Positions 7,563 through 26,069 are shown, numbered from the stretch's first letter. The stretch: 50,320 nucleotides of DNA from Candidatus Parcubacteria bacterium (GCA_009995365.1 JAACPR010000004.1:1-50320); one strand, 5' to 3'. Made by a program: numbers and translations. Notes: generated by a model not told the origin, from the sequence alone.

Positions 7563-7729
7563 CCTTAAATTTTATTTAAGGTATGGTCAAAAACGCGACG
7601 AACATAAAAACCCCATCATTAGGGCGTTCGTCGCGTTACATCGGGAAACTGGTGTAGAGGTCCGCAAGGGTCTTCCTAGTGGTGGGATTTTTGCGTATTA
7701 CCTCAATTATTAATTAATCGCGACGAACA
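7563..7729 (+). ncRNA. candidate structured cis-regulatory leader RNA, copy 1
   Basis: Elements in order: 5' hairpin 7563-7581; TATGGTC; segment a 7592-7603; segment b 7606-7620; a' 7626-7637; GGGAAAC 7643-7649; a GCAA-capped hairpin 7657-7674; b' 7678-7692; a repeat of segment a at 7719-7728, directly before ATG 7730. The same architecture, with compensatory changes, occurs at 37951-38179. Confidence 0.6.
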
Positions 7730-9108: not shown

Positions 9109-9522
9109 TTAATTTTTATCTTCTTTAAACCAACCAGCTTGCCACTCGAGTATTTTATTTCTTGCTCTCTCAATCTCTAGCTTATTTTTTTCTTGCTCTA
9201 GTTTTTTACGATCACTTCTAATTTTTTCGAAATAATTATTTCTATAAGACGGATGTCTGTGGCCTAACCAATATTTAGTCACACCAATGTCTCCGTTCTT
9301 AATTCCGTTTAGAAGATTATTTTCTGCGTAATCATTTACTCTATCAACACCAAAGAACAAAGCTTTCTCAACTTTATTTTTAAACCGAACGCTTTCTTTT
9401 TGCCATCTATAAATTGAATTTCTAGATATTCCTGCAACATCACAAGCGTGTTCAATAATCGGTGTTTTTTCAAGAGCTTCTAAGAAAGTTTCCTGTATTT
9501 TTTTCTTCCTATCTTTCTTCAT
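9109..9522 (-). CDS. HTH DNA-binding protein (phage small-terminase / transposase-HTH-like)
   Basis: ACDVAGISRNSIYRWQKES is a helix-turn-helix. The gene overlaps the ParB-MTase gene by 14 nt. Confidence 0.5.
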   Translation of the reverse strand: MKKDRKKKIQETFLEALEKTPIIEHACDVAGISRNSIYRWQKESVRFKNKVEKALFFGVDRVNDYAENNLLNGIKNGDIGVTKYWLGHRHPSYRNNYFEKIRSDRKKLEQEKNKLEIERARNKILEWQAGWFKEDKN

Positions 9523-10783
9523 TTGAGTGAATAATTACAGCTTTCTCTCCTGTAAGAGCTTCATACCTCCTTATGATCAAATCACAAAAGATAGGTTCTT
9601 TTTCAATAACATAAGCTCTTCTTTTTAATTCTGTACAGGCAATTAGTGTTGACCCTGATCCTCCAAAAGAATCTAATATGATATCTCCAATTTTAGAACA
9701 CCTCCTGATAGCTTTATGATAAAGATCAACAGGCTTTTGAGTTGCATGATTCATTTGTTTTCCTGAAACTCTTTTTGAAGTCCAAAGATTAATACTGTCT
9801 AATGATTCATTACCATTACCAATATCAGAATTCATAATCTGATTTAAACCATATTCATTTGAAGATAAATAAGGCTTGTTTAATGTACCGTAAATCGCAG
9901 GCTCATAACATTTTGAGAATGCCACACTAGGAGTTTCATTGCTCCCGTTCTTAATCCATAAACAAACACGCCTGTTTCTAATTCCAAACTCACGATAGAG
10001 TGTCTGAAGAATCCAAATCTGTTCTTCTGTATTGAAGTAGAACACATGACAATCTTCATTCGTTACTGTTAAAGCCGTCTTGATATTCTTCCTAAGAAAA
10101 TCAATATATTCTTCTTCAGTTCTGTTGTCCTCAACATTACCTCCAAAATCTCTTTTCCCACCAATACCTTTATTGTAATTTATTTGCAGATTGTAAATTG
10201 GATCTGAAAGAATTAAACTTGTCTTTTCTTTTCCAAACAATCTTTTTAATACTTTAGGATTGTTTGAGTCTTCACAAATCAATTTTGATTTACCAAGTAA
10301 AATTAAATCACCAGTTTTTGTTTTCGGTGTTTTTATTTTCTTGAGTTCAGCTTGTTCGTCGAAATCTGTTTCTTTTAAATCAGGTTCTTTATCAAACAAA
10401 TTTGATAATTCAATTTTGTCGAACCCTGATAGTTCAAGAGTTTCTAATTCGAACCCTTTTAACAAATCGAAATCCCAATCTCCACCAAGCTTGTTAGAAC
10501 CAATCAGATATTGATCTGATTCTTTTTTAGTAAGTTTTCTGTTGGGTACTCGAATATCGATTATTTCTTCTCCTCGTCCCAATAATTTTAAAGCCTTAAT
10601 TCTTTGATGACCTGCTAAAATTCTGCCATCAAAATCTACAGCAGGTATTTCAACTAGATTAAACTTTTTAAGACTTTTTGTAAGATCTGATAATTGCTTA
10701 TCAGAAATTGACCTTGGATTTATTTCTTGGGGAACAAGATCGTTTACCCGTTTTTGAATTGTGCACCAATGTAGTTTTTGCAT
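9509..10783 (-). CDS. ParB-like nuclease domain fused to an N6/N4 DNA methyltransferase
   Basis: ParB-like region RILAGHQRIKAL. MTase motif IV variant ILSDPIYN. Motif I ILDSFGGSGSTLIAC. The ORF is open to 10816, but alignment to the paralog at 33177-34448 favours Met at 10783. Confidence 0.8.
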   Translation of the reverse strand: MQKLHWCTIQKRVNDLVPQEINPRSISDKQLSDLTKSLKKFNLVEIPAVDFDGRILAGHQRIKALKLLGRGEEIIDIRVPNRKLTKKESDQYLIGSNKLGGDWDFDLLKGFELETLELSGFDKIELSNLFDKEPDLKETDFDEQAELKKIKTPKTKTGDLILLGKSKLICEDSNNPKVLKRLFGKEKTSLILSDPIYNLQINYNKGIGGKRDFGGNVEDNRTEEEYIDFLRKNIKTALTVTNEDCHVFYFNTEEQIWILQTLYREFGIRNRRVCLWIKNGSNETPSVAFSKCYEPAIYGTLNKPYLSSNEYGLNQIMNSDIGNGNESLDSINLWTSKRVSGKQMNHATQKPVDLYHKAIRRCSKIGDIILDSFGGSGSTLIACTELKRRAYVIEKEPIFCDLIIRRYEALTGEKAVIIHSNEER

Positions 10784-10869
10784 AATAACAACAATTAATA
10801 TTCCCATAAGGAACATGAATTAATAATTTCATTTTATTTTAGTTGTTACTTATACTCTCTATCTAAGTG

Positions 10870-10900
10870 CACTAATTTCTTAGTGTTAAAATTATTTTAA
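10870..10900. promoter_or_regulatory. two adjacent perfect palindromes (candidate operators)
   Basis: CACTAA-TTTC-TTAGTG (10870-10885) and TTAAAAT-T-ATTTTAA (10886-10900) sit in the divergent region between the ParB-MTase gene and the LexA-like gene. Confidence 0.4.
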
Positions 10901-10939
10901 CAGAATGGTGTAAAATGTAAAATAATTATTGTGGATAAC

Positions 10940-10968
10940 TTGCAAAAGTAAAGTGTAGATGATAGAAT
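10940..10968 (+). promoter_or_regulatory. sigma70-type promoter giving a leaderless or near-leaderless transcript
   Basis: TTGCAA (10940-10945), a 17-nt spacer, then TAGAAT (10963-10968). Only 7 nt separate the -10 box from ATG 10976, and there is no SD. Confidence 0.55.
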
Positions 10969-10975
10969 ATTAGAC

Positions 10976-11617
10976 ATGCATAGAATACAAAAACAACTTT
11001 TAGATCTAATAGCTACACATAAGGACTTTGGTTCTTATAGTCTAAGAAAAATGGCTGAAATAATTGGTGTTGAAGGTAGACCTCAGATTGTTAAATATCA
11101 TCTTCGACAGCTAGAAAAGGATAATCTTATTCAGGTTAATCTAGAAGAAGGAGTAATCAATCTTGTAAAAAGAGGAAGAGCTAAAGCATCAGTCAGCCCT
11201 ATTTATTCTTTGCCCGTTGTTGGATCTGCAAATTGTGGTCCTGCTAACATATTTGCTGAAACAAATATTGAAAAATATTTAAAAATTTCATCTTCACTTT
11301 TACCAAGAAATAAGAAAAGTCTATATGCTTTAATTGCTGATGGTAATTCTATGAATAAAGCTGAAGTCGAAGAAGGTAAAGTAATTGAAAATGGAGATTT
11401 TATTTTAGTAGATAAGGATCTACAAAATTATAAAACTGGAGATATTGTTGTTGCAGTTATTGATGGTATGGCAACTATCAAAAGATTTATAGAAGACAAA
11501 AAACATAATAGAATTATTCTAGAGGCTGATTCAACAGAAAAATACATGCCTATTATTATTAACGAAGGTGATGATTTTCTACTAAGTGGGAAAGTTGTTG
11601 GAATTATTAAAGGTTAA
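10976..11617 (+). CDS. lexA: LexA-like repressor (winged HTH plus S24 self-cleaving peptidase)
   Basis: N-terminal wHTH (MAEIIGVEGRPQIVKYHLRQLEKDNLI). Linker VVGSANCGPA with a Cys-Gly at the cleavage position, as in UmuD. Ser nucleophile in ADGNSMN and Lys in ATIKRF. Confidence 0.8.
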   Translation: MHRIQKQLLDLIATHKDFGSYSLRKMAEIIGVEGRPQIVKYHLRQLEKDNLIQVNLEEGVINLVKRGRAKASVSPIYSLPVVGSANCGPANIFAETNIEKYLKISSSLLPRNKKSLYALIADGNSMNKAEVEEGKVIENGDFILVDKDLQNYKTGDIVVAVIDGMATIKRFIEDKKHNRIILEADSTEKYMPIIINEGDDFLLSGKVVGIIKG

Positions 11618-11629
11618 TTATTTAAAAAT

Positions 11630-11812
11630 ATGAAAAAAGTTAAAGGAGAATTATTCAAAGATAGAAAGGGAGAAATCAGAGGAAGGGTTAGAAGTAATAA
11701 TGGAAATATTATTGCTACTACTGAAGGGTATACAAGAAAAGGATCAGCTGAGAATGCTTTGAAATTATTAGGTGTAAATAAAAAAGATACAAAAGATTTA
11801 AGGAAAAAATAA
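11630..11812 (+). CDS. DUF1508 / YegP-like small protein
   Basis: FKDRKGEIRGRVRSNNGNIIATTEGYTRKGSAENAL matches the YegP repeat pattern. Confidence 0.65.
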   Translation: MKKVKGELFKDRKGEIRGRVRSNNGNIIATTEGYTRKGSAENALKLLGVNKKDTKDLRKK

Positions 11813-11813
11813 C

Positions 11814-12644
11814 ATGACTAAAATACAAGAATATATTAATGAGTTAAAAGAAAAATCTGATAAAAGATTTGATGATTTTGATATTATCGAAATTGATAAC
11901 ATAAATTCCATATTAGATAAAGCTTATATTGATAAACCAACTTGGCTTGGTGGAGATAAAGAATTTGTCTGTCTTTTTATAGATCTTGATAAGTCTTCTA
12001 AAAAGTCTTTTAAGAAACACCCAAAAACAATGGCAAAAATTTATGATTATTTTACACAAAATATAGTAGATGTATTAAATCACCCCACTATTGGTGCAGA
12101 TTATATAGATATAAAAGGTGATGGTGCATTCGGAGTTTTCGGTGGGGACCAAGCTTCATTTAAGGCTTTTTATTGTGCAATAACCTTTAAAACACTTTTT
12201 GAAGAAAAGATTAAAAATAAATTTGGTACTGAGGAGGAATCCTTAGGGTGCAAAATTGGAATACACAAAGATAAGGTACTTGTTAGAAGAATAGGAAAAC
12301 GTGGCGAAGGTAATTATAATGAGGTCTGGGCTGGAAAACTTGTAAATAATGCATCAAAATTAGCGAGTCAAAAAATAGAACCTTCTAACCTAGGAGTTTT
12401 TGATCAAAATCTAATATTTGTCTCTGATAAGGTTTACAAAGATTTTGAAGATAATGAGGAATTCGGTCTATATCGTTGTTGTGATGTTAGTTCTGAAGAA
12501 AGTGTTTCCATTATTAATCAAAAAGTTCCAGTATTTACTAGAGTTGAAGAGCCATCAGAAGAAACATTAGGAGACTGTTTTTATAAGACGGATGTCAGGT
12601 GGTGTAATAAATGTGCTGATAAATATATTGATTTGATTAGATAG
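11814..12644 (+). CDS. class III nucleotidyl cyclase (PycC-like) with a Cys-rich C-terminal tail
   Basis: Metal-binding Asp motifs CLFIDLDKSS and IKGDGAFGVF. Cyclase core KIGIHKDKVLVRRIG...EVWAGKLVNNASKLAS. The tail is RCCD...GDCF...RWCNKC. Confidence 0.75.
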   Translation: MTKIQEYINELKEKSDKRFDDFDIIEIDNINSILDKAYIDKPTWLGGDKEFVCLFIDLDKSSKKSFKKHPKTMAKIYDYFTQNIVDVLNHPTIGADYIDIKGDGAFGVFGGDQASFKAFYCAITFKTLFEEKIKNKFGTEEESLGCKIGIHKDKVLVRRIGKRGEGNYNEVWAGKLVNNASKLASQKIEPSNLGVFDQNLIFVSDKVYKDFEDNEEFGLYRCCDVSSEESVSIINQKVPVFTRVEEPSEETLGDCFYKTDVRWCNKCADKYIDLIR

Positions 12645-12646
12645 AT

Positions 12647-13108
12647 ATGGAAAAACTAATTTTTAAATACAACACAATAACAAATTGGATTAATAATGCT
12701 GACCAAAAAGCCAATATAGCTTTCCCTGTGGAAGTTTTTATTTTGGGTTTTGTTATTAAGGAGCTTCCTGATAAGATTTTGAATGCAAGTTGTGTATATA
12801 CTTATATATTCGTATTTACTCTAATGTTAGGAATCTCGTCTATCTTTTTATTACTTAAAACTATTAGACCTGAGTTAAAAAATAAAGAAGGAAATTCAAA
12901 AATATTTTTTAAAGATATTAATGATAATTATAAAAAAGGAAAAATTGATATATTTGATCTTAATCAAAACGATAAGGATTTTGAAAAAGATTTAGAAAAT
13001 CAAATACTACAGTTATCAGTTGTGTGTACAAAAAAACAAAAAGCTATTTATTGGGTAACTTTATTTATATTCCTACAAATCCTATTGGTCTTTCTTATTT
13101 TTATTTAA
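12647..13108 (+). CDS. small TM protein, candidate Pycsar-type membrane effector
   Basis: The pattern NNADQKANIAF, then TM helices, then LKTIRPEL, then QILQLSVVCTKKQKAIYW and a terminal TM helix resembles the Pycsar-effector / former DUF family layout. This is from memory and is not verified. Confidence 0.5.
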   Translation: MEKLIFKYNTITNWINNADQKANIAFPVEVFILGFVIKELPDKILNASCVYTYIFVFTLMLGISSIFLLLKTIRPELKNKEGNSKIFFKDINDNYKKGKIDIFDLNQNDKDFEKDLENQILQLSVVCTKKQKAIYWVTLFIFLQILLVFLIFI

Positions 13109-13809: not shown

Positions 13810-13823
13810 AATAATTAGGGAGT

Positions 13824-13841
13824 GTCACTTTTGTCACTTTT
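13824..13841 (+). repeat. tandem 9-mer GTCACTTTT x2 overlapping a TTGACT box
   Basis: Read directly. An analogous tandem GTCGCATTT x2 occurs at 49021-49038, upstream of another copy of the same noncoding element. Confidence 0.6.
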
Positions 13842-13864
13842 TGACTGCTCGAGAAGGGTCAAAT

Positions 13865-13873
13865 TGATATAAT
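13865..13873 (+). promoter_or_regulatory. extended -10 promoter element TGaTATAAT
   Basis: TG at 13865-13866 and TATAAT at 13868-13873. It would start a transcript just upstream of noncoding element copy A. Confidence 0.4.
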
Positions 13874-13889
13874 AAAATTATTAAAAATA

Positions 13890-14019
13890 ACCTTACCGGA
13901 CTTGTCCGACCACGGTTCTAGCACGAGACGGCTCACCGACATGTGAGACAGACCGAGTCTCCTAAATTAGCTATATTTTGCAATGTATTATTGGAACGAG
14001 TCATGGTCTACGACTTTTG
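13890..14019 (+). repeat. dispersed noncoding element, copy A (possible sRNA)
   Basis: Shares with copy B an identical 17-mer TCACCGACATGTGAGAC (13933-13949) and a 24-mer ACGAGTCATGG(T/A)CTACGACTTTTG (13996-14019), at the same 63-nt spacing. It also has a hairpin GAGAC-7nt-GTCTC. Confidence 0.5.
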
Positions 14020-14090
14020 TGATTTGTTTGAACTATAGAAAAGCTATATTTTAAAGCTTTATTTTTGGTTCGATTCCTTCATTGTTTTAA

Positions 14091-14119
14091 TTGACATAAA
14101 AACATTTTTTAGGTAATGT
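14091..14119 (+). promoter_or_regulatory. sigma70-type promoter of the YcaO fusion gene
   Basis: TTGACA (14091-14096), a 17-nt spacer, then TAATGT (14114-14119). The SD AAAGGA sits 8 nt before ATG 14168. Confidence 0.55.
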
Positions 14120-14167
14120 CAAATCAGGAATTTAGTTCTTAAACAACAACACAGAAAGGATAAAATC

Positions 14168-16351
14168 ATGAACAAAAACAGTATTCCTATCCTGTGGGCA
14201 TCTGCTAGTGTTTCTAGCAACAAAACAACTTTCAATACTCTCAGTAAAGAAGTTGTTGTTGATGCTCCAGGTCCAGTAATCAAACAAATCATCAGTCTCT
14301 GCGATGGTAGTAAATACCTAAAAGAAATTGTTGATTTGCTCGCAAAAGATTGGGATCGTGAATCTATTGAAGGACTTATCAGTGTTCTTATTCAGAAGCA
14401 AGTAATTTTGGATGGTAAAACTCTCGATAAAGAATTCTGGACTTCAATTACCAATCCAATACGTTTCCCGACAAATGTAAGCAACGAGCGTGTTGCTGAG
14501 TTGGTTTTGCAAGCTACTCAAAGACATCGTGAAGAAAGTGTCAAAAAAACTTATCGACCAAGTGTGAGCGATTTGTCGGAACTGATGAGTCACCGAAAAT
14601 CTGTGAGGATTTTTTCAGGAGAATCAATAGGCTTTCAAACAGTTGTTGATCTCTTGTGGAGTGCTTACGGAGAATGTCTGACTAAAGACGGAAAATCTCA
14701 TAGATCAATTCCGTCCGCTGGCGCACTTTACCCTCTGATTATTCATGTTGGCTTGTTTGTAAAAACAGGTGAACTTAAATCTGGAGTCTATCGTGTTGTC
14801 TATGGTCAGGACGGATCAGTTGGGTTCAATCTCGTGTCGACAGATATATTGAGGTTTGCCAGAGCTTTCTTGAGTCCTGCTGGTATTCAAGAAGGGATTC
14901 ATGGAGTTATTACAATTAGTGGTTCGTTTTCAGTATCGAATCAAAAATACGGTAACCGTAGCATGTTGTATGTTCCGATTGAAGCTGGGCATTCTGCTCA
15001 GAATATTCTCTTGGAAGCAACACGGCAAAACGTGGCAACTCTCGAGATTGGAGGGTTTGTAGATGAGCTTTTGGCAAAATCTATTGAACTTCCAGAGGAT
15101 TACCATCCTCTCACTCTGGTGGCTTTTGGTAAGGAAAAAGAGCAATCTTATTCTAAACTAGAGCCATCTATCGAGATCGATTGGGCGATTCCAATGGTAC
15201 AAGGTTATAATCCTGGTTTTGCTATTGCGTCAGTTCGTTTATCAAAAGAACGGATCTGGTCACACGGCAGAGATCCGTCTCCTGAGATGGCTTTGAAAAA
15301 AGCAATTTCAGAAACTAAGGAGTGGACATCTTGTGGGTGTGTTCCCGAACTGACATATTCAACATTTGGTGAGTTGGAAAATGCTATCGATCCTCGAGAG
15401 ATTATTCAATTCCATCAAAGTCAGTATCGGATTAAAGGTTTTCCATTTGTGTCGTTTGATGAAAGTGTGAGTTACGGATGGACTAAGGGGTATGATTTAG
15501 CAGGTAAAGAATTTTATATCTGTGCTGATCAGGTTTATTTCCCTTATTTTCCTGACACACCCTGTTTTTGCTACTCGAATTCTTCGGGTTGTGCGGCACA
15601 TCCAGATCGACAGACTGCGATTGAGACAGGAACGCTTGAGTTGGTTGAGCGTGACGCTTTCATCAATTCATATTTCTGCAAACTCGATAGACCTTATGTC
15701 GATACAGATACGCTTCCTGATTCAATTGAGAAGCGAATCCAAGACTTGGAGTCTGCAGGGTTTAAAGTTTGGGTCATTGACCACTCTCTTGATCTAGCAC
15801 CAGTTGTGTTTGTCTTTGCACAAAACGAAGACATTCACTATTCTACTTGTGCTTCGTGTTCGAGTTTCGATATTGAACACGCTGTCAGTCATGCACTTAT
15901 GGAGGTTGAGGCTTCGGTCTTACACCGACTTCAGCACGGAAAGCCTGACGAGATTAAACCAAATGAGGTTATCTGGCCAAACGATCATGGTAAGCTTTAT
16001 GGACAAAAGCAATTTTTCCAGAGGGCTGACTTTTTGGTCGAAAGTTCAAAGAGGATCTCTTTCCGAGAAATCGGTGGTTTCTCAGCTCTGACTTGGTCAG
16101 AACTCCTCGATCGTTTTGAGAATAAGGGTTGGAAGCACCTAGTGGTTCCACTCAAACTCTCTGATGATTATGGTGGCAACGGTGATTCGAATATCGTTCG
16201 TGTAATTGTTCCCGGGACTGTTCAGATGACCTTTGGTTATCGACAAGAACCTGCGGGCATGAAACGACTCTACGACATTTCCGAAAGGTTTGGTAATGGA
16301 AGAAGGCTGTCTTATGGGCAGTTAACTAAATTTCCTCATCCTTTCGAGTGA
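14168..16351 (+). CDS. fused RRE-like / SagB-type FMN dehydrogenase / YcaO cyclodehydratase
   Basis: - N-terminus: PGPVIKQIISLCDGSKYLKEIVDLL is PqqD/RRE-like.
- SagB motifs: RKSVRIFSG, IPSAGALYPL, NQKYGNRSMLY (Lys-Tyr), EAGHSAQNILLEA.
- YcaO motifs: SNSSGCAAHPDRQTAIETGTLELVERDAF and the C-terminal FPHPFE (PxP tail). Confidence 0.85.
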   Translation: MNKNSIPILWASASVSSNKTTFNTLSKEVVVDAPGPVIKQIISLCDGSKYLKEIVDLLAKDWDRESIEGLISVLIQKQVILDGKTLDKEFWTSITNPIRFPTNVSNERVAELVLQATQRHREESVKKTYRPSVSDLSELMSHRKSVRIFSGESIGFQTVVDLLWSAYGECLTKDGKSHRSIPSAGALYPLIIHVGLFVKTGELKSGVYRVVYGQDGSVGFNLVSTDILRFARAFLSPAGIQEGIHGVITISGSFSVSNQKYGNRSMLYVPIEAGHSAQNILLEATRQNVATLEIGGFVDELLAKSIELPEDYHPLTLVAFGKEKEQSYSKLEPSIEIDWAIPMVQGYNPGFAIASVRLSKERIWSHGRDPSPEMALKKAISETKEWTSCGCVPELTYSTFGELENAIDPREIIQFHQSQYRIKGFPFVSFDESVSYGWTKGYDLAGKEFYICADQVYFPYFPDTPCFCYSNSSGCAAHPDRQTAIETGTLELVERDAFINSYFCKLDRPYVDTDTLPDSIEKRIQDLESAGFKVWVIDHSLDLAPVVFVFAQNEDIHYSTCASCSSFDIEHAVSHALMEVEASVLHRLQHGKPDEIKPNEVIWPNDHGKLYGQKQFFQRADFLVESSKRISFREIGGFSALTWSELLDRFENKGWKHLVVPLKLSDDYGGNGDSNIVRVIVPGTVQMTFGYRQEPAGMKRLYDISERFGNGRRLSYGQLTKFPHPFE

Positions 16352-16357
16352 TGTTTT

Positions 16358-16394
16358 GAGGCGGAAAGCTAACAACTTTCCGCCTCTTTTTTTA
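16358..16394 (+). terminator. rho-independent terminator
   Basis: GAGGCGGAAAG-CTAACAA-CTTTCCGCCTC (11-bp stem) followed by TTTTTTT. Confidence 0.85.
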
Positions 16395-16411
16395 TTTGTT
16401 AGTATAAGACT

Positions 16412-17224
16412 ATGAATAAGGATTTATCACAAATTGAATTTTACTTCCCAAAAGGTAGTTTTAATAACAAAGAAGAAATTGTAGATCAGATAATTTCTTT
16501 TATGAAAGAAAAAGGTAGTACAGACTATTCTGGCTATGCAGATTTAGATTTGCTTAAACAAGGCCTATTAGATTATATTGGAAATGGTGATAGTTCAGAC
16601 TATCAATCTATTTCTGAAGATAAACAAAAAGAAATTGAAAATATTATTTCTGACACTGTTGAAAAATGTAATGAAAATTTATCTGTGCCTACTAAAAATT
16701 TTATTTTTGTTCATCCATATTTTCCGACAAAAGATGACGAAGTATTTGATGGGGTAATGGCAGTTGCTGTTTATAGTTGTGTTTTTCATTTATTTATTAA
16801 TCTAGAACAAGCGACAAAAGAATCTATTGAAAATACTGTTGCACATGAATTGAATCATACAACCTACTATTATCATCATTATGATGATTTTAATAATTAC
16901 ACTCTGTTAGATGAGATTTTATTGGAAGGTTTAGCCGAAAATTTTCGAGAACAACATTTTAAACCAGAAATTACTAAATGGGCCGGGGCATTAGAAAAAG
17001 ATGAGGCTTTACAAATATTAAAAGATTTAAATAAAGAGATATTAAATTCAACGGATCAAAAAGTCATTAGAGATTTTCTTTTTGGAAATGAAAAATATAA
17101 AAGATGGACTGGGTACTCAGCAGGTTATTGGTTAGTTAAAGAGTTTATAAATAAAAACTCAGAAATGTCTTGGAAAGAATTAATGAAGATTGATAAAGAA
17201 AAGTTTCTAGAAGTTTTATATTAA
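16412..17224 (+). CDS. HExxH zinc metallopeptidase-like protein (DUF2268-like)
   Basis: VAHELNHTTYY (HExxH) with a downstream EGLAENF that could supply the third ligand. Confidence 0.55.
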   Translation: MNKDLSQIEFYFPKGSFNNKEEIVDQIISFMKEKGSTDYSGYADLDLLKQGLLDYIGNGDSSDYQSISEDKQKEIENIISDTVEKCNENLSVPTKNFIFVHPYFPTKDDEVFDGVMAVAVYSCVFHLFINLEQATKESIENTVAHELNHTTYYYHHYDDFNNYTLLDEILLEGLAENFREQHFKPEITKWAGALEKDEALQILKDLNKEILNSTDQKVIRDFLFGNEKYKRWTGYSAGYWLVKEFINKNSEMSWKELMKIDKEKFLEVLY

Positions 17225-17264
17225 AAAAAGAAGGACGTAATAACATGGAAGTCATTACGTCCTT
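17223..17264 (-). terminator. rho-independent terminator serving the minus-strand small ORF
   Basis: AAGGACGTAAT / ATTACGTCCTT is a perfect 11-bp stem (17231-17241 and 17254-17264). The U-tract is on the minus strand only (plus-strand AAAAAAA at 17223-17229). Confidence 0.8.
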
Positions 17265-17288
17265 ATGAGGGCTGAGGCGAGAGCAATG

Positions 17289-17417
17289 CTATTTACTCCC
17301 ACATTTGCCGTTGCCACTATCTCCAGAAGATCTGCACTGTGCCTGGCACACAACGGTGCCGGGAAGAGGCTTGTCTTTGGAGGTGACATTCCAAGAGAAT
17401 TTTTTGGGATTCTTCAT
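17289..17417 (-). CDS. unannotated 42-aa Cys/Ser/Gly-rich peptide, candidate RiPP precursor
   Basis: My manual reverse-strand translation gives MKNPKKFSWNVTSKDKPLPGTVVCQAQCRSSGDSGNGKCGSK then TAG. The SD AAAGGAGA lies 8 nt upstream of the ATG. The terminator lies 25 nt downstream. The ORF falls below the 60-aa cut-off of the ORF track. Confidence 0.6.
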   Translation of the reverse strand: MKNPKKFSWNVTSKDKPLPGTVVCQAQCRSSGDSGNGKCGSK

Positions 17418-17491
17418 GGTAGTGGTCTCCTTTCTATTTTCGAGGTTAACTTTCGGTTTTCAAGGGAAAAGAACTTCTTTTCCTATCTAAA

Positions 17492-17519
17492 ATACTATTA
17501 TTTATAGAACTTTTGTCAA
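17492..17519 (-). promoter_or_regulatory. candidate promoter of the 42-aa ORF
   Basis: On the minus strand: TTGACA (plus-strand 17514-17519), a 16-nt spacer, then TAGTAT (17492-17497). The 5' UTR contains the hairpin GGAAAAGAAGTTCTTTTCC. Confidence 0.45.
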
Positions 17520-17574
17520 GAGTTCTAAATAAAAACTCAAATTTTTATTAAATAGTTATAAAATTAATACGCAC

Positions 17575-17700
17575 CATTCAAGGGCGACCGAGACGGTTCG
17601 AATCCTGCTGCGGTCACCGACATGTGAGACCTATCGAGACGCCTGAAATCGTCTTTTCTCACCATTTTACTTTCGCACGAGTCATGGACTACGACTTTTG
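17575..17700 (+). repeat. dispersed noncoding element, copy B (possible sRNA)
   Basis: Same conserved blocks as copy A (17614-17630 and 17677-17700, spacing 63 nt). It has an extra minihelix, GACCGAGACGG-TTCGAAT-CCTGCTGCGGTC (17586-17615), with a T-loop-like GGTTCGAATCC. It ends 13 nt before ATG 17714. Confidence 0.5.
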
Positions 17701-17713
17701 CTAGAATTGTTAT

Positions 17714-18727
17714 ATGTATAAAAACATTAAAGAACTAGATTTTTTAGATCTTGAACACAAGGATAACCTTAATAAATTTTATTCTTGGATTCCTGGTCTA
17801 CGTCTATCAGATAAAATTAAAGATCGTAACATAAAATTAGAAGACGGTTTTTTTATTTGCTCACAAGAACAGCATAAAACTTATAGAAAAATTATAGGTG
17901 ATTATGTTAAAGAAAATTTTAATGTAGTAAATATTAGTTCAGTTGTTTTGTATTTTAAATATCCAAAAGATAATAGATATTATTTTGTTGCTCAAGATAA
18001 AGTAAGAAGGTTTTTAACTTCTGTAAAGATTTTCTATAATCAAAATGTCGACAGTATTTTAGAACTCTCTGTTTGTGATAATAAAGATGAGAAATATTTC
18101 AGGATAGATAATCTTTCTGAACATAGTGATAGACAAAGAGAGTTAATTACAGATGTATATTGGAGAAGAAATTTTATAGAAATTGAAAATGAAGAATATC
18201 TAAAAAAGATAAAGAAGATATATAATAACTTAGGAATCGCTGATGTTGAGAATTTTAATAAATATTCTCCTTTACATAATTCTATAAAATTTTATGAACA
18301 TTCTTATCGTGAGAGATGGGCCCTATTAAAAACAATGTTACTTTTCGTTTCGCTAGAGAGTATATTAGGAGAAAAAACAGAAATTACATATAAAATTTCA
18401 TCTAGAGCATCTTATTTGCTTTATCCGAAAAATAGTAAAAAACGTCTAGAAATTTTCAACTTTCTAAAGAAAGTATATGGTATTCGAAGTAGTTTTGCTC
18501 ATGGTGGTAATGTTGAAACAGATATAAGAAAGATTGAAAAACAAATGAAAGAAAATAAGGGTGTTGATTATTATGGTTTTCATGATGACTTTGTGAAAGA
18601 TTTAGAAAGTATAGTGATCGGATGTTTAAAGATTATATTATTAGATAAAAAACTTACTGAATTATTTTCTTCTACTACAAATAGTAAAAAAATATCAAAG
18701 TTTCTAGACGAATTAGTTATTGGATAA
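17714..18727 (+). CDS. hypothetical protein with a C-terminal HEPN-like Rx4H motif
   Basis: YGIRSSFAHGGN (R-x4-H) sits in a helical C-terminal half. The N-terminal half is unrecognised. Confidence 0.4.
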   Translation: MYKNIKELDFLDLEHKDNLNKFYSWIPGLRLSDKIKDRNIKLEDGFFICSQEQHKTYRKIIGDYVKENFNVVNISSVVLYFKYPKDNRYYFVAQDKVRRFLTSVKIFYNQNVDSILELSVCDNKDEKYFRIDNLSEHSDRQRELITDVYWRRNFIEIENEEYLKKIKKIYNNLGIADVENFNKYSPLHNSIKFYEHSYRERWALLKTMLLFVSLESILGEKTEITYKISSRASYLLYPKNSKKRLEIFNFLKKVYGIRSSFAHGGNVETDIRKIEKQMKENKGVDYYGFHDDFVKDLESIVIGCLKIILLDKKLTELFSSTTNSKKISKFLDELVIG

Positions 18728-18729: not shown

Positions 18730-20064
18730 TTATTTAATAAATATTTTCTTATCTCTCAACACCAACTCACTTCTCAGATTTTTTAATAATTCTCGCTTCT
18801 CGTATATAGGTCTAGTTCTTAAAATGTGTTTCGCATAATTTCTGATATCGATTTCTTTAATTTTAACTTTTTCGTTAACTTCTTTTCCTAAAACAGATTT
18901 TTGAAATTCATTGTGTGATTGTATTGTTTCTTTGATTTTGTCTTTCATTCCGATTTTATCTAAATCTACGGTATCTAATACCTCTGCAATCTGATCAATC
19001 AAAGCTTCTTCTCGAATATGTTCACATTTGCAATCTTTATCGTGAAATTTTGTACATCTGTAATATACATAACGAGCTTGAGTTCCATCTTTTAATTTTT
19101 TAAATTTCTCATCGGCAGTTATTCCTGATCCACACAATCCGCATTTAATCATTTTAGTGAATGCAAACTCTTTGTTTTGAGTTCGTACTTGTTGATCGGC
19201 TGTAATTTGTTTTTGAACTTGTAAGTATAAGTCTTTGGTGACAATCGGTTCATGTTTTCCTTTATACCAATTATCGCTATTTTTAGGATATTCAAATTCT
19301 CCGTAATAGAAGGTGCTTTTTAAAATTATGTAAATATTGCTCAAGGTTAAAGGTTTTCCTCTTCTGGTTGTGAATCGAATATCATCCCGAAGCCAATAGA
19401 ATACTTTACGTCCAGACCAACCATTGTAGGCTACTTTTTCATATATTTGTTTAATAATGTCATATCTTTGTTCATCCTTGATCACTTCACACTTTTTATT
19501 TCTATCAGGGTTAGGAAGATAACCAGTAGGTGGTACAGATGGCCATAACCCCATCTCACATCTCGCTCTCAGTCCTCTTTTTACATTCACTACTTTATTA
19601 TCATTCTCTAGTTTAGCTTGTGAGCCTAGAATCATTAATAGGAACTTTTCATTTGGATTGTTGGTAAATTTCTGTCCGTAGGTTCGAATTTCAATGAGTA
19701 GCTTTTGATCCATTAAATCTACAACCGAACCAAGGTCTCCTGCGTTTCTAGATAACCTATCTGGTGCCCAAGTTAATATTCCATTAAATTTACCTTCGCG
19801 AACTTCTTGGAGTAGTTCATTATAGACTGGTCGCTTACCAACTTCTTTGGATGAATGTGATTCTCTTTTTATTTCCACAATTTCTAGCCCTTCACGCTCG
19901 GCAAGAGTAGTCATTTCTCGAACCTGAGATTCTATTGATAAAGCTTGCTTATCCTCTTGCTCGGTTGATTTTCGAGCGTAAAGACAGTATTTAATTGGTA
20001 CTTGGTCTTGTAATATTTTCGATTTCTCATCAGAAGTCACTTGTAGCGGGTTTGTTATTTGCAT
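18730..20064 (-). CDS. large serine recombinase
   Basis: Resolvase catalytic region YARKSTEQEDKQALSIESQ...RLSRN, a recombinase domain, and a zinc ribbon CGLCGSG...YYRCTKF. Confidence 0.9.
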   Translation of the reverse strand: MQITNPLQVTSDEKSKILQDQVPIKYCLYARKSTEQEDKQALSIESQVREMTTLAEREGLEIVEIKRESHSSKEVGKRPVYNELLQEVREGKFNGILTWAPDRLSRNAGDLGSVVDLMDQKLLIEIRTYGQKFTNNPNEKFLLMILGSQAKLENDNKVVNVKRGLRARCEMGLWPSVPPTGYLPNPDRNKKCEVIKDEQRYDIIKQIYEKVAYNGWSGRKVFYWLRDDIRFTTRRGKPLTLSNIYIILKSTFYYGEFEYPKNSDNWYKGKHEPIVTKDLYLQVQKQITADQQVRTQNKEFAFTKMIKCGLCGSGITADEKFKKLKDGTQARYVYYRCTKFHDKDCKCEHIREEALIDQIAEVLDTVDLDKIGMKDKIKETIQSHNEFQKSVLGKEVNEKVKIKEIDIRNYAKHILRTRPIYEKRELLKNLRSELVLRDKKIFIK

Positions 20065-20175
20065 ACAAACATTAATGACGCAACTGTATTGAGGAGTCTA
20101 GGGCTATTTTGACTCGTGAAAGTTGGTAACTAATCTTCTTTATTTTAGGCTTATTTCGTGCTATTTTTATAATAA

Positions 20176-23100
20176 ATGGAAAAAATAATAGATAATAAAA
20201 AAACTAGGATAATTGATGTCTTAAAGAGTGGTATTAAAAAAGATTCAAAATTATCTATTATCTCTGCTTACTTCACAATTTATGGTTTTGATAAATTAAA
20301 AGACCAGTTAGAAAATATCGACAGTTTAAAATTTCTATTTATTGAACCAACTTTTATAAAAGAAAAAGAGGAAAAAAGAGAATTTTATATTAATCGTAAA
20401 AATAGAGAGAAACAGATTTCTGGTACAGAATATGAAATTAAATTAAGGAACGAACTTAGACAATCTGAAATTGCAAAAGAATGTGCAGAATGGATTCGTG
20501 AAAAAGTTGAATTTAAGTCTCTCAAAAAAACAGATACTTCGAGTGCTAGAACAATTAATGTTCAGAATTCAGACGGATCAAATTTCGTTATAAATGGTCA
20601 AATGGATTTTACCGCATCAGGTTTAGGAGTGACTCAATCCAAAAAGTATGAAATACACAGCTATTCAGATGAAAAAAATGCAACCACCGAAGCACTAAGT
20701 TGGTTTGATGAAATTTGGGATAACGAAGAATTGGCAGAAGAAGTCAAAGATGAAGTTCTGAAAAATATTGAAACAATTTATAATGAAAATACACCTGAAT
20801 TTATTTACTTTGTAACTCTTTATAATATTTTTAGAGAATATTTAGATGACTTAGCAGAAGAAAACATAATTAAGCCAAAAACAGGATTTGCTGAAACAAA
20901 AGTCTGGAATAAGCTATATCAATTTCAAAAGGATGGAGTTATGGGTGCAATCAGTAAATTAGAAGATCATAATGGTTGTATTATTGCTGACAGTGTTGGA
21001 CTTGGAAAAACTTTCGAGGCCTTGGCGGTTATTAAATATTACGAATTAAGAAATCACCGAGTTTTAGTTTTATCCCCTAAAAAATTGCGGGATAACTGGA
21101 ATATGTACAGGATGAATGATGTAAGAAATATTCTGTCAGAAGATAGATTTGGTTACGATATCCTAAATCATACAGATCTAAGTCGTGAGAAAGGTATGTC
21201 TGGTGATATAAACATTGAAACAGTAAATTGGGGTAATTACGATCTAATTGTAATTGACGAGTCTCACAACTTTAGAAATAACGATCCACGAAAAGGAAAG
21301 AAAACTCGGTATCAAAAATTAATGGAAGATATTATTAAGAGTGGAGTTAAAACGAAGGTTTTGATGCTGTCTGCTACTCCTGTTAATAATAAAATGACCG
21401 ATTTAAAAAATCAGGTCGCCTTTATAACAGAGGGAAATGATAGGGCACTTTCTGAATCTGGAATTCCTAGTATTCAAGAAACTTTAAGGGTTGCTCAATT
21501 AATTTTTAATAAATGGCAAGACAAACCCATAGCAGAAAGAAAACTAGAGGACTTACTAAAGTCATTTAATATTAATTACTTTAAGTTGTTAGACACCCTA
21601 ACCATTGCCAGATCTAGAAAACACATAGAAAAATATTATGATCTAACAGAGATAGGTAAATTTCCAGAAAGATTAAAACCCGAAAATAAAAAATCTGGAG
21701 TCGATCTTAAAAACGAATTTTCTGATTTTAATGAAATAAATAATACAATTAGTAAATTAAAACTTTCTATATATTCTCCACTTCAGTATGTTTTACCTAA
21801 TAAAGTTAAATATTACGAAGAAAAATACGATATGGTTGTTAATGAAGGCCAATCTAGTTTTAAACAATCTGATAGAGAGAAAAACATTGTAAATCTAATG
21901 AGAGTTAATATTCTAAAAAGACTTGAAAGTTCTGTTTATTCATACAATTTAACTCTAAATAAAATTGATTCAAAGATAACCAATGTATTAAATAAAATTG
22001 AAAACATTAATGAAAATGATTTTTTCGAGACAGACTCAGAAGATCAAGAAGAAAGTATTGACGGAGATGACGAACAACTGGAATCAATGATGATTGGCGA
22101 CAAAATTAGAGTCTCATTGAAGGATATGGATTTAGTTAGGTGGAAAGAAGATTTAGAAGATGATCATCAGAAATTTCAGGAACTAATTAATCAGTCAAAA
22201 ACTATTACACCAAAAAGAGATGAAAAATTGGATACATTAAAGAAAATTATTACAGATAAAATTAAAAATCCAATAAATGACGGTAATAATAAAATTTTGA
22301 TTTTTTCTGCCTACGCTGATACTGCAAATTACCTCTACGATAATTTATCTGATTGGATCAAAGAAGAATTTAAAATTCATACTGCTCTCGTTACTGGTGG
22401 AGGTTCGAACAAGGTGACATCAAAATTAATTCCTAATCATTTTGATTCAGTACTAACTAACTTCTCACCAATCTCAAAAGAAAGAGACAAGATTTATCCT
22501 GATCTTAAGGATGAAATTGATATTTTGATTGCTACAGATTGTATTTCAGAAGGTCAAAACTTGCAGGACTGCGATTGTTTAATTAATTACGATATTCACT
22601 GGAACCCAGTTAGGATTATTCAACGGTTCGGTCGAATTGATCGTATTGGTTCTAAAAATGACAGAGTTAAGTTAATTAACTTTTGGCCCGATATGGAACT
22701 CGAATCATATATTAAATTGGAGCAAAGAGTTAGAGGTAGAATGATGCTTCTAAATACCTCTGCTACTGGAGAAGAAGATTTAATTAATGAATCTGAACAA
22801 GAAGTAATGAATGATATTGAGTACCGTAAAAATCAACTAATGAAGCTTCAAGAGGAAATAGTTGACCTAGAAGACGTGTCAGGAAACATTTCGATTACAG
22901 ACTTAACTATGAATGATTTCAGAATGGATTTGGCTTCGTATATGAAAGAACACAAAGACGAGTTAGAAAATGCACCTCTTGGCATGTATGCGGTTGCTGA
23001 TAAAAAATTACTTGGAGAAAATATTGAATCTGGAATAATTTTTGCTCTAAAACAGGCGAATTTTTCGGAATTAGAATCTAAAGAAGTAAATGCTATTCAT

Positions 23101-23433: not shown

Positions 23434-23434
23434 A

Positions 23435-26067: not shown

Positions 26068-26069
26068 TT

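What the first reader, a model, noticed from the sequence alone, without database searches (positions are those of the whole stretch)
14091..17519. Compact azol(in)e-type RiPP-like island: an all-in-one RRE-SagB-YcaO enzyme, an HExxH peptidase and a hidden Cys/Ser/Gly peptide gene
One 727-aa polypeptide combines three parts:
- a PqqD/RRE-like N-terminus,
- a SagB-type FMN dehydrogenase (RKSVRIF, SAGALYPL, Lys-Tyr in NQKYGNR, EAGHSAQN),
- a YcaO cyclodehydratase (SNSSGCAAHPD...LELVERDAF, C-terminal FPHPFE).

No separate E1-like/ThiF-like C protein and no TfuA is present in the window. The gene has its own TTGACA-17-TAATGT promoter and a strong terminator. Next come an HExxH peptidase gene, which could act as a leader peptidase, and a convergent, unannotated 42-aa ORF rich in Cys/Ser/Thr/Gly. 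Together these would be a minimal substrate-recognition, cyclodehydration, oxidation and cleavage set. The link between the peptide and the enzyme is inference from proximity and composition only.
Basis: partly seen in the sequence, partly recalled or inferred. Interest (0 to 1): 0.85.

Follow-up and report, generated by a model that had tools for sequence, protein, structure and literature searches.

The report
All-in-one azole-peptide gene module
A three-gene cassette in an ultra-small (CPR/Patescibacteria-type) bacterium encodes a single enzyme that should bind, cyclise and oxidise a tiny Cys/Ser-rich peptide, plus a metalloprotease and the previously unannotated peptide gene; it is a compact, little-studied variant of a known class of modified peptides.

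Summary

**Enzyme.** ORF 14168-16351 (727 aa) has three parts:
- an N-terminal RRE-fold domain, shown by an AlphaFold model plus Foldseek (only sub-threshold HMM hits);
- a SagB-type FMN dehydrogenase with an invariant Lys-Tyr;
- a YcaO domain closest to the TOMM/SagD type.

**Neighbours.** A DUF2268 HExxH...E metalloprotease gene follows. A convergent 42-aa gene (17289-17417, minus strand) has its own promoter, a 5' hairpin, a strong Shine-Dalgarno site and a terminator.

**Link between peptide and enzyme.**
- A peptide profile hits 78 of 103 loci that carry the fusion and 0 of 77 control loci.
- Every miss with an enzyme at least 32% identical is cut off by a contig end.
- The peptides share a PKKFSWKV-type leader and a Cys/Ser/Gly-rich C-terminus.
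- The pairing survives three different gene arrangements, in CPR bacteria and in Proteobacteria.

**Partners.** No E1-like, ThiF-like or TfuA protein belongs to the module.

**Mobility.** The 3.5-kb cassette looks horizontally acquired. It sits in a defence island, between Pycsar upstream and a serine recombinase, an HKD/Snf2 helicase and type III R-M downstream.

**Verdict.** This is a linear azol(in)e peptide (LAP/TOMM) module with an unusual RRE-dehydrogenase-YcaO single chain. It is a new variant of a known kind. The chemistry, the peptidase role and the product's function are untested.

The parts
14091..14119 (+). Promoter-like element TTGACA-N17-TAATGT upstream of the enzyme gene
   Evidence: Read directly from the sequence. 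The -10 is weak (3 of 6) and the scan did not list it. TTGAC[A/T]-N17-TAATGT is conserved in L001, L002, L003, L083-L095 and L145.
14168..16351 (+). 727-aa RRE-SagB-YcaO fusion enzyme gene
   Evidence: ORF. Pfam and NCBIfam matches. More than 220 homologues of about 726 aa. AlphaFold model and Foldseek matches to LynD/TruD/MusD/McbD and to BmdC/ThcOx/McbC.
14168..14413 (+). RRE (RiPP recognition element) domain, about aa 1-82
   Evidence: Model with pLDDT 85 and a beta-strands-then-three-helices layout. Foldseek matches almost only RRE domains, TMq 0.5-0.65. Only sub-threshold Pfam hits to PaaA_N, PqqD and Lant_dehydr_N.
14570..15142 (+). SagB-type FMN dehydrogenase domain, about aa 135-325
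   Evidence: PF00881 at 1e-10 and TIGR03605 at 1.6e-16. R143/S145/R147 and K260-Y261 are invariant in 24 homologues. PDB profile hits to McbC, BmdC and ThcOx.
15266..16348 (+). YcaO cyclodehydratase domain, about aa 367-727, ending in FPHPFE
   Evidence: PF02624 at 1.7e-41 and TIGR03604 at 2e-45. Invariant E382/E385, S472-S473-G474, E491/E494-R495-D496, E579/E581 and F722-P723-H724-P725.
16358..16396 (+). Intrinsic terminator after the enzyme gene
   Evidence: Stem of 11 pairs (7 G-C) followed by TTTTTTTATT.
16412..17224 (+). DUF2268 HExxH...E metalloprotease gene (candidate leader peptidase)
   Evidence: PF10026 at 1e-30. H145, E146, H149 and E172 are invariant in 23-49 orthologues. It neighbours the fusion gene in most CPR loci.
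17231..17264 (-). Terminator hairpin of the peptide gene, lying between the two convergent genes
   Evidence: Stem of 14 pairs followed by CTTTTTTTAA on the minus strand.
17289..17417 (-). Precursor peptide gene: MKNPKKFSWNVTSKDKPLPGTVVCQAQCRSSGDSGNGKCGSK
   Evidence: ORF. Orthologues in at least 78 loci. Differences by codon position 307/250/726.
17427..17431 (-). Shine-Dalgarno AGGAG, 9 nt upstream of the ATG
   Evidence: Sequence. An AGGAG/GGAGG site 6-9 nt upstream is conserved in nearly all of the 42 distinct loci.
17465..17483 (-). Stem-loop at the 5' end of the peptide mRNA
   Evidence: RNAalifold on 10 orthologues gives 9 pairs, 6 of them with compensatory changes.
17492..17519 (-). 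Promoter of the peptide gene, TTGACA-16-TAGTAT
   Evidence: The best promoter-like site in the region, 10 of 12 matches. TTGACA is conserved in orthologues.
13885..14045 (.). Left flanking repeat that brackets the cassette
   Evidence: 72-75% identical to the right copy. Homology to L002 begins at 14086. Its nature is unexplained.
17566..17713 (.). Right flanking repeat that brackets the cassette
   Evidence: Homology to L002 ends at 17568. Its nature is unexplained.

Best explanation
This is a self-contained biosynthetic module for a small linear azol(in)e-containing peptide (LAP/TOMM-type RiPP).

**Proposed steps**
1. The 42-aa precursor is transcribed from its own strong promoter.
2. Its N-terminal leader carries the conserved recognition sequence P-K-K-F-S-W-x-V-T. 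The leader binds the RRE domain at the N-terminus of the 727-aa enzyme.
3. The YcaO domain uses ATP to cyclodehydrate Cys24, Cys28 and Cys39, and possibly some Ser, to thiazolines or oxazolines.
4. The fused FMN-dependent SagB domain oxidises these rings to azoles.
5. The DUF2268 Zn-metalloprotease probably removes the leader.
6. Because the RRE is in the same chain as both catalytic domains, no E1-like or ThiF-like partner would be needed.

**Shown here**
- The domain identities and the conserved catalytic motifs.
- That the peptide gene is real.
- The tight co-occurrence of enzyme and peptide.

**Inferred**
- Leader-RRE binding.
- Which residues are modified.
- Independence from a partner protein.
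- The peptidase role.
- Export and biological activity.
For: **Domains**
- YcaO and Nitroreductase by Pfam, and SagD and SagB as best NCBIfam hits.
- Foldseek matches to LynD, TruD, McbD, ThcOx and McbC.
- The RRE fold.

**Catalytic motifs invariant in 24 homologues at 48-92% identity**
- FMN site RxSxR.
- The SagB Lys-Tyr pair.
- The YcaO acidic motifs.
- The C-terminal PHP motif.

**Peptide**
- 42 distinct sequences carry F-x-W-x-[VI] flanked by conserved P/K/K.
- P at -3 occurs in 33 of 42 and K/R at -2 in 39 of 42. Neither position was imposed by the search pattern.
- The C-terminal parts contain 1-6 Cys.
- A strong Shine-Dalgarno site is present in nearly all of them.
- The HMM hits 78 of 103 fusion loci and 0 of 77 controls.
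- There are no counterexamples among loci with enough flanking sequence and an enzyme at least 32% identical.
- Third-codon-position changes dominate.

**Gene arrangements**
- Enzyme, then DUF2268, then a convergent peptide gene.
- Enzyme, then peptide, then a convergent DUF2268.
- Enzyme, then peptide, with no DUF2268.
- The only constant pair is enzyme plus peptide.

**No partner protein**
- None among 35 scanned window ORFs.
- None in the conserved module.
Against: - There is no biochemical evidence.
- Both NCBIfam TOMM models score below their curated cut-offs, so the enzyme is a divergent member.
- All characterised azoline-forming YcaOs that I know of (from memory: Burkhart 2017; see also PMC4603692) use an E1-like or ThiF-like partner, which also activates the YcaO. 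A partner encoded elsewhere in the genome cannot be excluded.
- RRE-like domains fused to dehydrogenases have been called possibly vestigial (PMC7470986).
- Some subfamily precursors have no Cys at all (L137-L143), so the chemistry may differ within the family.
- No transporter or immunity gene is part of the module.
Confidence: 0.75

Rival explanations
1. The peptide is the substrate, but the chemistry is not azole formation. The YcaO domain could instead install a thioamide or amidine, or cleave the backbone as MusD does. The nitroreductase domain could perform another dehydrogenation, for example forming a dehydro-amino acid as PflD does.
For: - YcaOs are chemically versatile; MusD is among the best structural matches.
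- Nitroreductase domains in RiPP clusters can perform other dehydrogenations (PMC12636437).
- TOMM models score below their cut-offs.
- Cys-free, Ser/Gln-rich cores exist in one subfamily.
Against: - The best family match is SagD/TOMM, well ahead of the thioamidation (methan_mark_1, 54 bits) and kinase-type models.
- No TfuA is present.
- The SagB Lys-Tyr pair is invariant.
- Cores are rich in Cys, Ser and Gly, as in LAP substrates.
- A YcaO physically fused to a SagB is what the azoline-to-azole sequence would predict.
Confidence: 0.1
2. DUF2268 is not the leader peptidase. It could be an immunity or self-protection factor, another tailoring enzyme, or an unrelated but linked gene. The leader would then be removed by a housekeeping protease or not removed at all.
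For: - DUF2268 is absent from the proteobacterial enzyme-plus-peptide loci.
- Its orientation relative to the enzyme flips between arrangements.
- A terminator separates it from the enzyme gene.
- It has no solved or characterised relative.
- HExxH proteins in RiPP clusters can be hydroxylases.
Against: - It is linked to the enzyme and peptide in nearly all CPR loci, in two arrangements.
- The gluzincin-type HExxH...E signature is invariant.
- It matches no NCBIfam model at E up to 0.01. I take this to exclude the alpha-KG-HExxH hydroxylase model, which I recall from memory as TIGR04267.
- It has no signal peptide by eye, which fits an intracellular processing role.
Confidence: 0.35
3. The small protein is not the substrate. 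It could be a regulator or a small metal-binding protein. The enzyme would then modify another protein, as E. coli YcaO does with a ribosomal protein.
For: - Housekeeping YcaOs that act on ribosomal proteins or McrA exist (PMC13063428, PMC7550191; listed).
- The peptide has CxxxC-like spacing, which could bind metal.
Against: - The enzyme carries an RRE, a domain specialised for binding leader peptides.
- The peptide has the leader-plus-core layout, with a conserved N-terminal motif and a hypervariable Cys/Ser/Gly C-terminus.
- The pair is the only constant feature across arrangements and phyla.
Confidence: 0.05
4. In this particular genome the cassette is a recently acquired, silent or decaying passenger with no function.
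For: - Cassette G+C is 37.5% against 29.4% in the flanks.
- It lies in a mobile and defence region.
- The core differs from the clade consensus at several positions: QAQC, R29 and D33.
Against: - All three ORFs are intact.
- All family-invariant residues are retained.
- Promoters, the Shine-Dalgarno site, the 5' hairpin and the terminators are intact.
- The cassette is 91% identical to L002 with no frameshifts.
Confidence: 0.05

Closest known systems
Microcin B17 synthetase McbBCD (E. coli)
   Same: Both combine an RRE-mediated leader grip, YcaO cyclodehydration and SagB-type FMN oxidation of a Gly/Ser/Cys-rich core. McbB, McbC and McbD are all structural or profile matches.
   Different: McbBCD is a complex of three separate proteins, and its RRE sits on an E1-like scaffold (McbB). 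Here a single chain carries all three functions and has no E1-like domain. The McbBCD operon also has export and immunity genes, which this module lacks.
Cyanobactin heterocyclases LynD / TruD / PatD
   Same: Each is a single polypeptide with an N-terminal RRE and a C-terminal YcaO. They are the top Foldseek hits for both the whole model and the N-terminal domain.
   Different: Their middle domain is E1-like, not a dehydrogenase. Oxidation is carried out by a separate oxidase (PatG-ox or ThcOx). Sequence identity is about 15%.
ThcOx / CyaGox cyanobactin oxidases, and the NRPS oxidase BmdC
   Same: They have RRE-like domain(s) fused N-terminal to a SagB-type FMN oxidase, the same layout as residues 1-325 here.
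   Different: They have no YcaO domain. Their RREs are regarded as possibly vestigial (PMC7470986). Here a strongly conserved leader motif argues for a working RRE.
LAP clusters reported in CPR genomes (Sharrar et al. 2020, PMC7298704)
   Same: They occur in the same group of organisms and have the same gene set: YcaO, nitroreductase, peptidase and a nearby precursor. 110 clusters were reported in 93 genomes.
   Different: They are described as separate YcaO and nitroreductase genes with an 84-aa precursor, found by antiSMASH only. The fusion, the cis RRE, DUF2268 and the PKKFSWKV precursor family are not described there. Whether the two sets overlap could not be checked.
Partner-independent YcaOs (bottromycin BotC/BotCD)
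   Same: They work with no E1-like or ThiF-like partner gene (PMC4603692).
   Different: They have no RRE and no fused dehydrogenase, and they use follower-peptide substrates. The present enzyme supplies substrate recognition in cis.

Membership tests
LAP / TOMM (azol(in)e RiPP) biosynthetic cluster | YcaO-family cyclodehydratase domain with an intact ATP/Mg site | tested here: met
   PF02624 at E 1.7e-41. Foldseek matches to LynD, TruD and McbD. The acidic motifs and S-S-G are invariant. Assigning these motifs to the ATP/Mg site rests on memory of Dunbar 2014.
LAP / TOMM (azol(in)e RiPP) biosynthetic cluster | Membership of the curated SagD subfamily (TIGR03604) and SagB domain (TIGR03605) at their trusted cut-offs | tested here: not met
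   155 bits against a cut-off of 219, and 60 bits against a cut-off of 78. These are the best-scoring models, but the enzyme is a divergent relative.
LAP / TOMM (azol(in)e RiPP) biosynthetic cluster | E1-like (C) or Ocin-ThiF-like (F) partner, or a C-D fusion; this is how Cox et al. 2015 defined TOMM clusters | tested here: not met
   The conserved module has only three genes. None of the 35 scanned window ORFs is ThiF/E1-like. The peptide-binding part of the partner's role is supplied by the cis RRE.
LAP / TOMM (azol(in)e RiPP) biosynthetic cluster | FMN dehydrogenase of SagB type with the Lys-Tyr motif | tested here: met
   PF00881. K260-Y261 and R143/S145/R147 are invariant. Profile and fold matches to McbC, BmdC and ThcOx. 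The significance of the Lys-Tyr motif is from memory (Melby 2014).
LAP / TOMM (azol(in)e RiPP) biosynthetic cluster | Adjacent precursor with a conserved leader and a Cys/Ser/Thr-rich core | tested here: met
LAP / TOMM (azol(in)e RiPP) biosynthetic cluster | Azol(in)e rings actually installed in the product | not testable with these tools
   Needs mass spectrometry of the co-expressed peptide.
RiPP recognition element (PqqD-like RRE) | Three-stranded beta-sheet followed by three helices (winged helix-turn-helix) at the enzyme's N-terminus | tested here: met
   AlphaFold model with pLDDT 85: E7-9 (short), E12-16, E19-23, E28-32, then H35-44, H51-58 and H64-76. Foldseek hits are almost only RREs.
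RiPP recognition element (PqqD-like RRE) | Match to the PqqD/RRE sequence models at threshold | tested here: not met
   Only sub-threshold hits: PaaA_N in 7 of 18 members, PqqD in 3 of 18, best E 0.001-0.016. No PDB sequence hit.
RiPP recognition element (PqqD-like RRE) | Binds the leader peptide | not testable with these tools
   Inferred from the invariant F-x-W leader motif.
TfuA-associated thioamidating YcaO | Adjacent TfuA gene and a match to the thioamidation YcaO models | tested here: not met
   No TfuA in the module or in the scanned ORFs. methan_mark_1 scores 54 bits against a cut-off of 365.
DUF2268 / gluzincin-type Zn metalloprotease | PF10026 match, with HExxH and a downstream Glu ligand conserved | tested here: met
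   107 bits against a cut-off of 23.6. H145, E146, H149 and E172 are invariant. Proteolytic activity itself is untested.

The most novel reading that the evidence does not exclude
The 727-aa protein would be a natural, partner-independent 'all-in-one' azole synthetase: an RRE, a SagB dehydrogenase and a YcaO in one chain, with no E1-like or ThiF-like domain. It would have its own previously undescribed precursor family (PKKFSWKV leader with a short Cys/Ser/Gly core). The module would spread horizontally as a two- or three-gene cassette through ultra-small CPR genomes and into Proteobacteria. In this window it rides in a defence island, so the product could be a competition, defence or host-interaction factor of an episymbiont.
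Probability: 0.35. Interest if true: 0.65.

Novelty: new variant of a known kind. Interest (0 to 1): 0.55.

Why it matters
**For enzymology**
- If the single chain really performs recognition, cyclodehydration and oxidation alone, it is the smallest known complete azole-installing machinery.
- It would be a natural test of whether azoline-forming YcaOs truly need an E1-like or ThiF-like activator.
- With a recognition tag of about 10 residues (PKKFSWKVT), it would be a convenient one-gene tool for putting thiazoles and oxazoles into peptides.

**For biology**
- It is one of the very few specialised-metabolite modules in the drastically reduced genomes of CPR/Patescibacteria.
- It is widely distributed there: 195 clusters at 50% identity for its RRE domain alone.
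- It appears to be exchanged horizontally.
- Its product may therefore matter for how these episymbionts compete or interact with their hosts.

Tried and rejected
**Is the G+C-rich stretch holding the small ORF a non-coding RNA?**
- No tRNA or tmRNA was found.
- No Rfam family matched at gathering threshold or at E up to 5.
- The coding signature is clear. Rejected.

**The flanking ~130-150-nt repeats**
- As a structured RNA: fold z-scores are about -0.7 and there is no Rfam hit.
- As tRNA remnants: a GGTTCGAATCC T-loop-like string is present, but ARAGORN finds nothing credible even at 80% thresholds.
- As a widespread element: the 17-mer TCACCGACATGTGAGAC gave only chance-level hits in unrelated taxa.
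- They remain unexplained.

**Phage origin**
- Megablast of window 1-25000 against the phage collection gave no match.

**Sequence searches of solved structures**
- The RRE profile found nothing meaningful in the PDB.
- The DUF2268 profile found nothing meaningful either.

**Other checks**
- PADLOC has no defence-system model for the enzyme, the peptidase or ORF 17714-18727.
- Neighbours of the proteobacterial versions (L009, L013, L017) were scanned for conserved transporter, immunity or tailoring genes. None was found.
- Literature searches for a described SagB-YcaO fusion, DUF2268 in RiPPs, or CPR YcaO systems found only generic mentions.

Full report
**1. What is in the sequence**

The window has about 28-29% G+C, but 14000-17000 rises to 35-42%. 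ORF listing confirms three genes:
- a 727-aa ORF at 14168-16351(+);
- a 270-aa ORF at 16412-17224(+);
- a convergent 42-aa ORF at 17289-17417(-), MKNPKKFSWNVTSKDKPLPGTVVCQAQCRSSGDSGNGKCGSK.

The expression signals are as follows.
- TTGACA-N17-TAATGT lies at 14091-14119. Its -10 hexamer matches TATAAT at only 3 of 6 positions, and the consensus scan did not list it.
- The same TTGAC[A/T]-N17-TAATGT element recurs upstream of orthologous genes that are only about 70% identical.
- A strong terminator follows the enzyme gene at 16358-16386 plus a T-run.
- The small gene is a complete transcription unit on the minus strand:
  - the best promoter-like site of the region, TTGACA-16-TAGTAT at 17519-17492;
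  - AGGAG 9 nt before the ATG;
  - a 14-bp hairpin with a T-run at 17264-17231.

**2. The enzyme**

*Profile matches.*
- Pfam gives Nitroreductase (residues 142-322, E 1e-10) and YcaO (367-684, E 1.7e-41).
- NCBIfam ranks TOMM_cyclo_SagD (2e-45) and the SagB peptide dehydrogenase (1.6e-16) first. These are far ahead of the thioamidation and kinase-type YcaO models.
- Both top hits are below their curated cut-offs, so this is a divergent relative, not a member of those curated sets.

*Structure.*
- A profile of 24 homologues finds MusD, TruD, LynD, archaeal YcaOs, McbC, BmdC and ThcOx among solved structures.
- The AlphaFold model (pLDDT 73.5) finds the same proteins by fold.

*Residues invariant across homologues at 48-92% identity.*
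- R143/S145/R147.
- K260-Y261, the Lys-Tyr pair of NQKYGNR.
- E382/E385.
- S472-S473-G474.
- E491/E494-R495-D496.
- E579/E581.
- The C-terminal F722-P723-H724-P725.

Reading these as the FMN site, the SagB catalytic dyad, the YcaO ATP/Mg site and a PxPxP-like C-terminus rests on my recollection of Melby 2014 and Dunbar 2014. It is not a test made here.

*The N-terminus.*
- Sequence models do not recognise it at threshold. There are only weak PaaA_N, PqqD and LanB-N hits and nothing in the PDB by sequence.
- A model of residues 1-100 (pLDDT 85.3; four short strands, then three helices) matches almost exclusively RiPP recognition elements. These are TruD, LynD, the isolated PbtF RRE, ThcOx, TigE, TbiB1, McbB, MccB and a lasso B1 protein.

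**3. The peptidase gene**

- ORF 16412-17224 is DUF2268, a 'predicted Zn-dependent protease' (E 1e-30).
- H145-E146-x-x-H149 and E172 are invariant in 23-49 orthologues, a gluzincin-like signature.
- It has no NCBIfam model and no solved relative by sequence.
- HExxH proteins in RiPP clusters can be alpha-KG-dependent oxygenases rather than proteases (PMC12636437). The leader-peptidase role therefore stays an inference.

**4. Is the small ORF a gene, and is it linked to the enzyme?**

This was the weakest part of the finding and is now the strongest.

*Homologues of the enzyme.*
- There are more than 220, nearly all 720-750 aa. They come from Paceibacterota, Saccharibacteria and other Patescibacteria.
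- I fetched 22 loci from species-representative genomes and 80 from metagenomes.

*Orthologous peptides.*
- The closest locus, L002 (enzyme 92% identical), and a Paceibacterota MAG, L001 (73%), carry the same convergent small ORF. L001 encodes MKNPKKFSWKVISKDKPLPGTIVCQEQCSSGGGGNGKCGTGK.
- A pattern search, followed by an HMM built from 42 distinct peptides, finds a homologue in 78 of 103 fusion loci. It finds none in 77 control loci covering 637 kb.
- Hits include many loci that were not used to build the HMM.
- Every locus without a hit whose enzyme is at least 32% identical ends within 390 nt of the last gene. There is no well-flanked counterexample.

*Shared features of the peptides.*
- F and W were imposed by my search pattern.
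- The neighbouring positions were not imposed, yet they are conserved: P at -3 (33 of 42), K/R at -2 (39 of 42), K at -1, V/I at +4 and K/R at +9.
- The C-terminal 15-30 residues are variable and rich in Cys (1-6 per peptide), Ser and Gly.
- Almost all have an AGGAG/GGAGG site 6-9 nt upstream.
- Among 13 orthologues, differences at codon positions 1, 2 and 3 number 307, 250 and 726.

*Three gene arrangements exist.*
- Enzyme, then DUF2268, then a convergent peptide gene. Most CPR loci and the window have this form.
- Enzyme, then peptide, then a convergent DUF2268. Examples: L009, L133, L136, L147, L152.
- Enzyme, then peptide, with no DUF2268. Proteobacterial examples: L011, L013, L017, L153, L155, L156. 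Their cores are very short, such as ...LPLGCGGCK.

The constant unit is enzyme plus peptide.

**5. No partner protein**

- The conserved module never includes an E1-like, Ocin-ThiF-like or TfuA gene.
- None of the 35 Pfam-scanned window ORFs is of these kinds.
- Neighbours of the proteobacterial loci showed no conserved transporter or tailoring gene.

**6. Family breadth and architecture**

- A profile of the RRE domain alone finds 195 clusters (50% identity) among 1.84 billion representatives.
- Most are 717-773-aa fusions.
- There are also complete RRE-SagB proteins of about 320-340 aa without a YcaO, for example P0212 and P0223.
- One 951-aa protein, P0245, has an extra N-terminal domain that looks GNAT-like by eye; this was not tested.
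- The fusion therefore has split relatives. These may correspond to the separate 'nitroreductase next to YcaO' genes reported in CPR LAP clusters (PMC7298704).

**7. Genomic setting**

- The cassette at window 14086-17568 is 91% identical to L002. The neighbouring NUDIX gene of L002 matches a different place in the window (5932-6631) at only 75%.
- Cassette G+C is 37.5% against 29.4% in the flanks.
- It lies between a Pycsar system upstream (PycC 11814-12644, PycTM 12647-13108) and several genes downstream:
  - an unknown ORF;
  - a large serine recombinase;
  - an HKD+Snf2 helicase;
  - DUF4391;
  - a type III restriction-modification system.
- Two imperfect direct repeats of about 130-150 nt bracket it. 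I could not explain them.
- Together these points indicate a horizontally acquired cassette in a variable defence/mobile region.

**8. Most likely mechanism**

1. The leader binds the cis RRE.
2. The YcaO domain cyclodehydrates Cys, and possibly Ser, in the core at the expense of ATP.
3. The fused SagB domain oxidises azolines to azoles.
4. DUF2268 probably removes the leader.

Nitroreductase-fold enzymes are obligate dimers and YcaOs are commonly dimers (general knowledge). A homodimer with two RREs, two FMN sites and two YcaO sites is therefore the likely assembly; this is inference. Export and biological activity are unknown.

**9. Comparison with what is known**

- The chemistry and logic are those of LAP/TOMM systems such as McbBCD.
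- The single-chain RRE...YcaO layout recalls LynD/TruD, and the RRE-oxidase half recalls ThcOx.
- The difference is that the E1-like scaffold is missing altogether and the dehydrogenase takes its place.
- The 2015 TOMM landscape defined clusters by a C protein or a C-D fusion. It does not describe this architecture (PMC4603692).
- One paper notes in passing that the oxidase domain can be fused to YcaO (PMC10783134).
- CPR LAP clusters with YcaO, nitroreductase and peptidase were reported from antiSMASH output (PMC7298704).
- I found no description of the cis RRE, the DUF2268 link or the PKKFSWKV precursor family. The library searched is limited to open-access papers.

**10. Verdict**

- It is a new variant of a known kind, not a new kind.
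- Interest is 0.55. It is a neat minimal azole synthetase, and one of the few specialised-metabolite modules of CPR bacteria. Its class is known, and its activity is so far only predicted.

Noticed in passing
window 13885-14045 and 17566-17713; L083 7463-7576: Two imperfect direct repeats (72-75% identical) lie right at the edges of the cassette. Their shared blocks are GACGGTTC, TCACCGACATGTGAGAC and ACGAGTCATGG[T/A]CTACGACTTTTG. L083 has an 84%-identical copy of window 13823-13936, including TGTCACTTTTGTCAC, just beyond its own peptide gene. There is no Rfam or tRNA match and no folding signal. They could be att-like remnants, cassette boundaries or regulatory leaders.
   Followed up: partly
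L001 5820-5845 and 9480-9505: In the Paceibacterota MAG, a perfect inverted repeat of about 25 bp (TCTATACAACCACGCTCGAACGTAT) flanks the same three-gene cassette. A tRNA-Ile(tat) gene lies at 5567-5640, just upstream.
   Followed up: no
window 17465-17483 (-): The peptide mRNA has a conserved stem-loop at its predicted 5' end. It has 9 pairs, 6 of them with compensatory changes across 10 orthologues. It may be a 5' stabiliser or a regulatory element.
   Followed up: partly
L137-L143, L148 (e.g. L138 6214-6345); L160, L162: One subfamily of precursors keeps the leader motif (KRFIWSVKSKPR) but has no Cys at all. Its cores are Ser/Gln-rich (MKSSDSSGQSAQSKD). In L160 and L162 the peptide gene lies upstream of the enzyme gene and ends ...PVPAGSGGK. 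This suggests oxazole-only products or different chemistry.
   Followed up: no
P0212, P0223, P0179, P0230, P0241, P0262; P0245: Complete stand-alone RRE-SagB proteins of about 320-340 aa share this RRE, so they are split versions of the enzyme. A 951-aa relative has an extra N-terminal domain that looks GNAT-like by eye.
   Followed up: partly
window 7555-7675 and 37943-38064 (+): There are two copies of the LOOT RNA motif (RF03000; 80.5 and 49.9 bits, both above the gathering score). Each lies upstream of an ORF with no Pfam match (7730-8284 and 38180-39244).
   Followed up: no
window 9509-13108 and 18730-34448: The cassette sits in a dense defence/mobile region. Upstream are a methylase lacking a ParB_N match at E<=0.001 (9509-10816), an S24 LexA-like repressor (10976-11617) and Pycsar PycC+PycTM (11814-13108). 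Downstream are a large serine recombinase (18730-20064), an HKD+Snf2 helicase (20176-23433), DUF4391, a type III MTase and REase (24172-29424), a T5orf172 protein and further methylases, one of them (33177-34448) with a ParB_N domain.
   Followed up: partly
window 17714-18727 (+): A 337-aa ORF lies immediately after the right-hand repeat. It has no Pfam, NCBIfam or PADLOC match.
   Followed up: no
window 36886-37602 (-), with a G+C rise at 36000-38000: A 238-aa protein has a C-terminal PEP-CTERM sorting motif. It lies in a second patch of higher G+C (37-40%), next to the second LOOT RNA. This is unexpected in an apparently CPR-type genome.
   Followed up: no
window 6044-6103, 6560-6619, 42983-43042: A repeated NUDIX-box coding segment marks tandem Nudix domains in ORF 6176-6916 and a third copy at about 43 kb. 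In L002 the orthologous NUDIX gene sits directly beside the RiPP cassette, which shows that the cassette has moved relative to it.
   Followed up: partly
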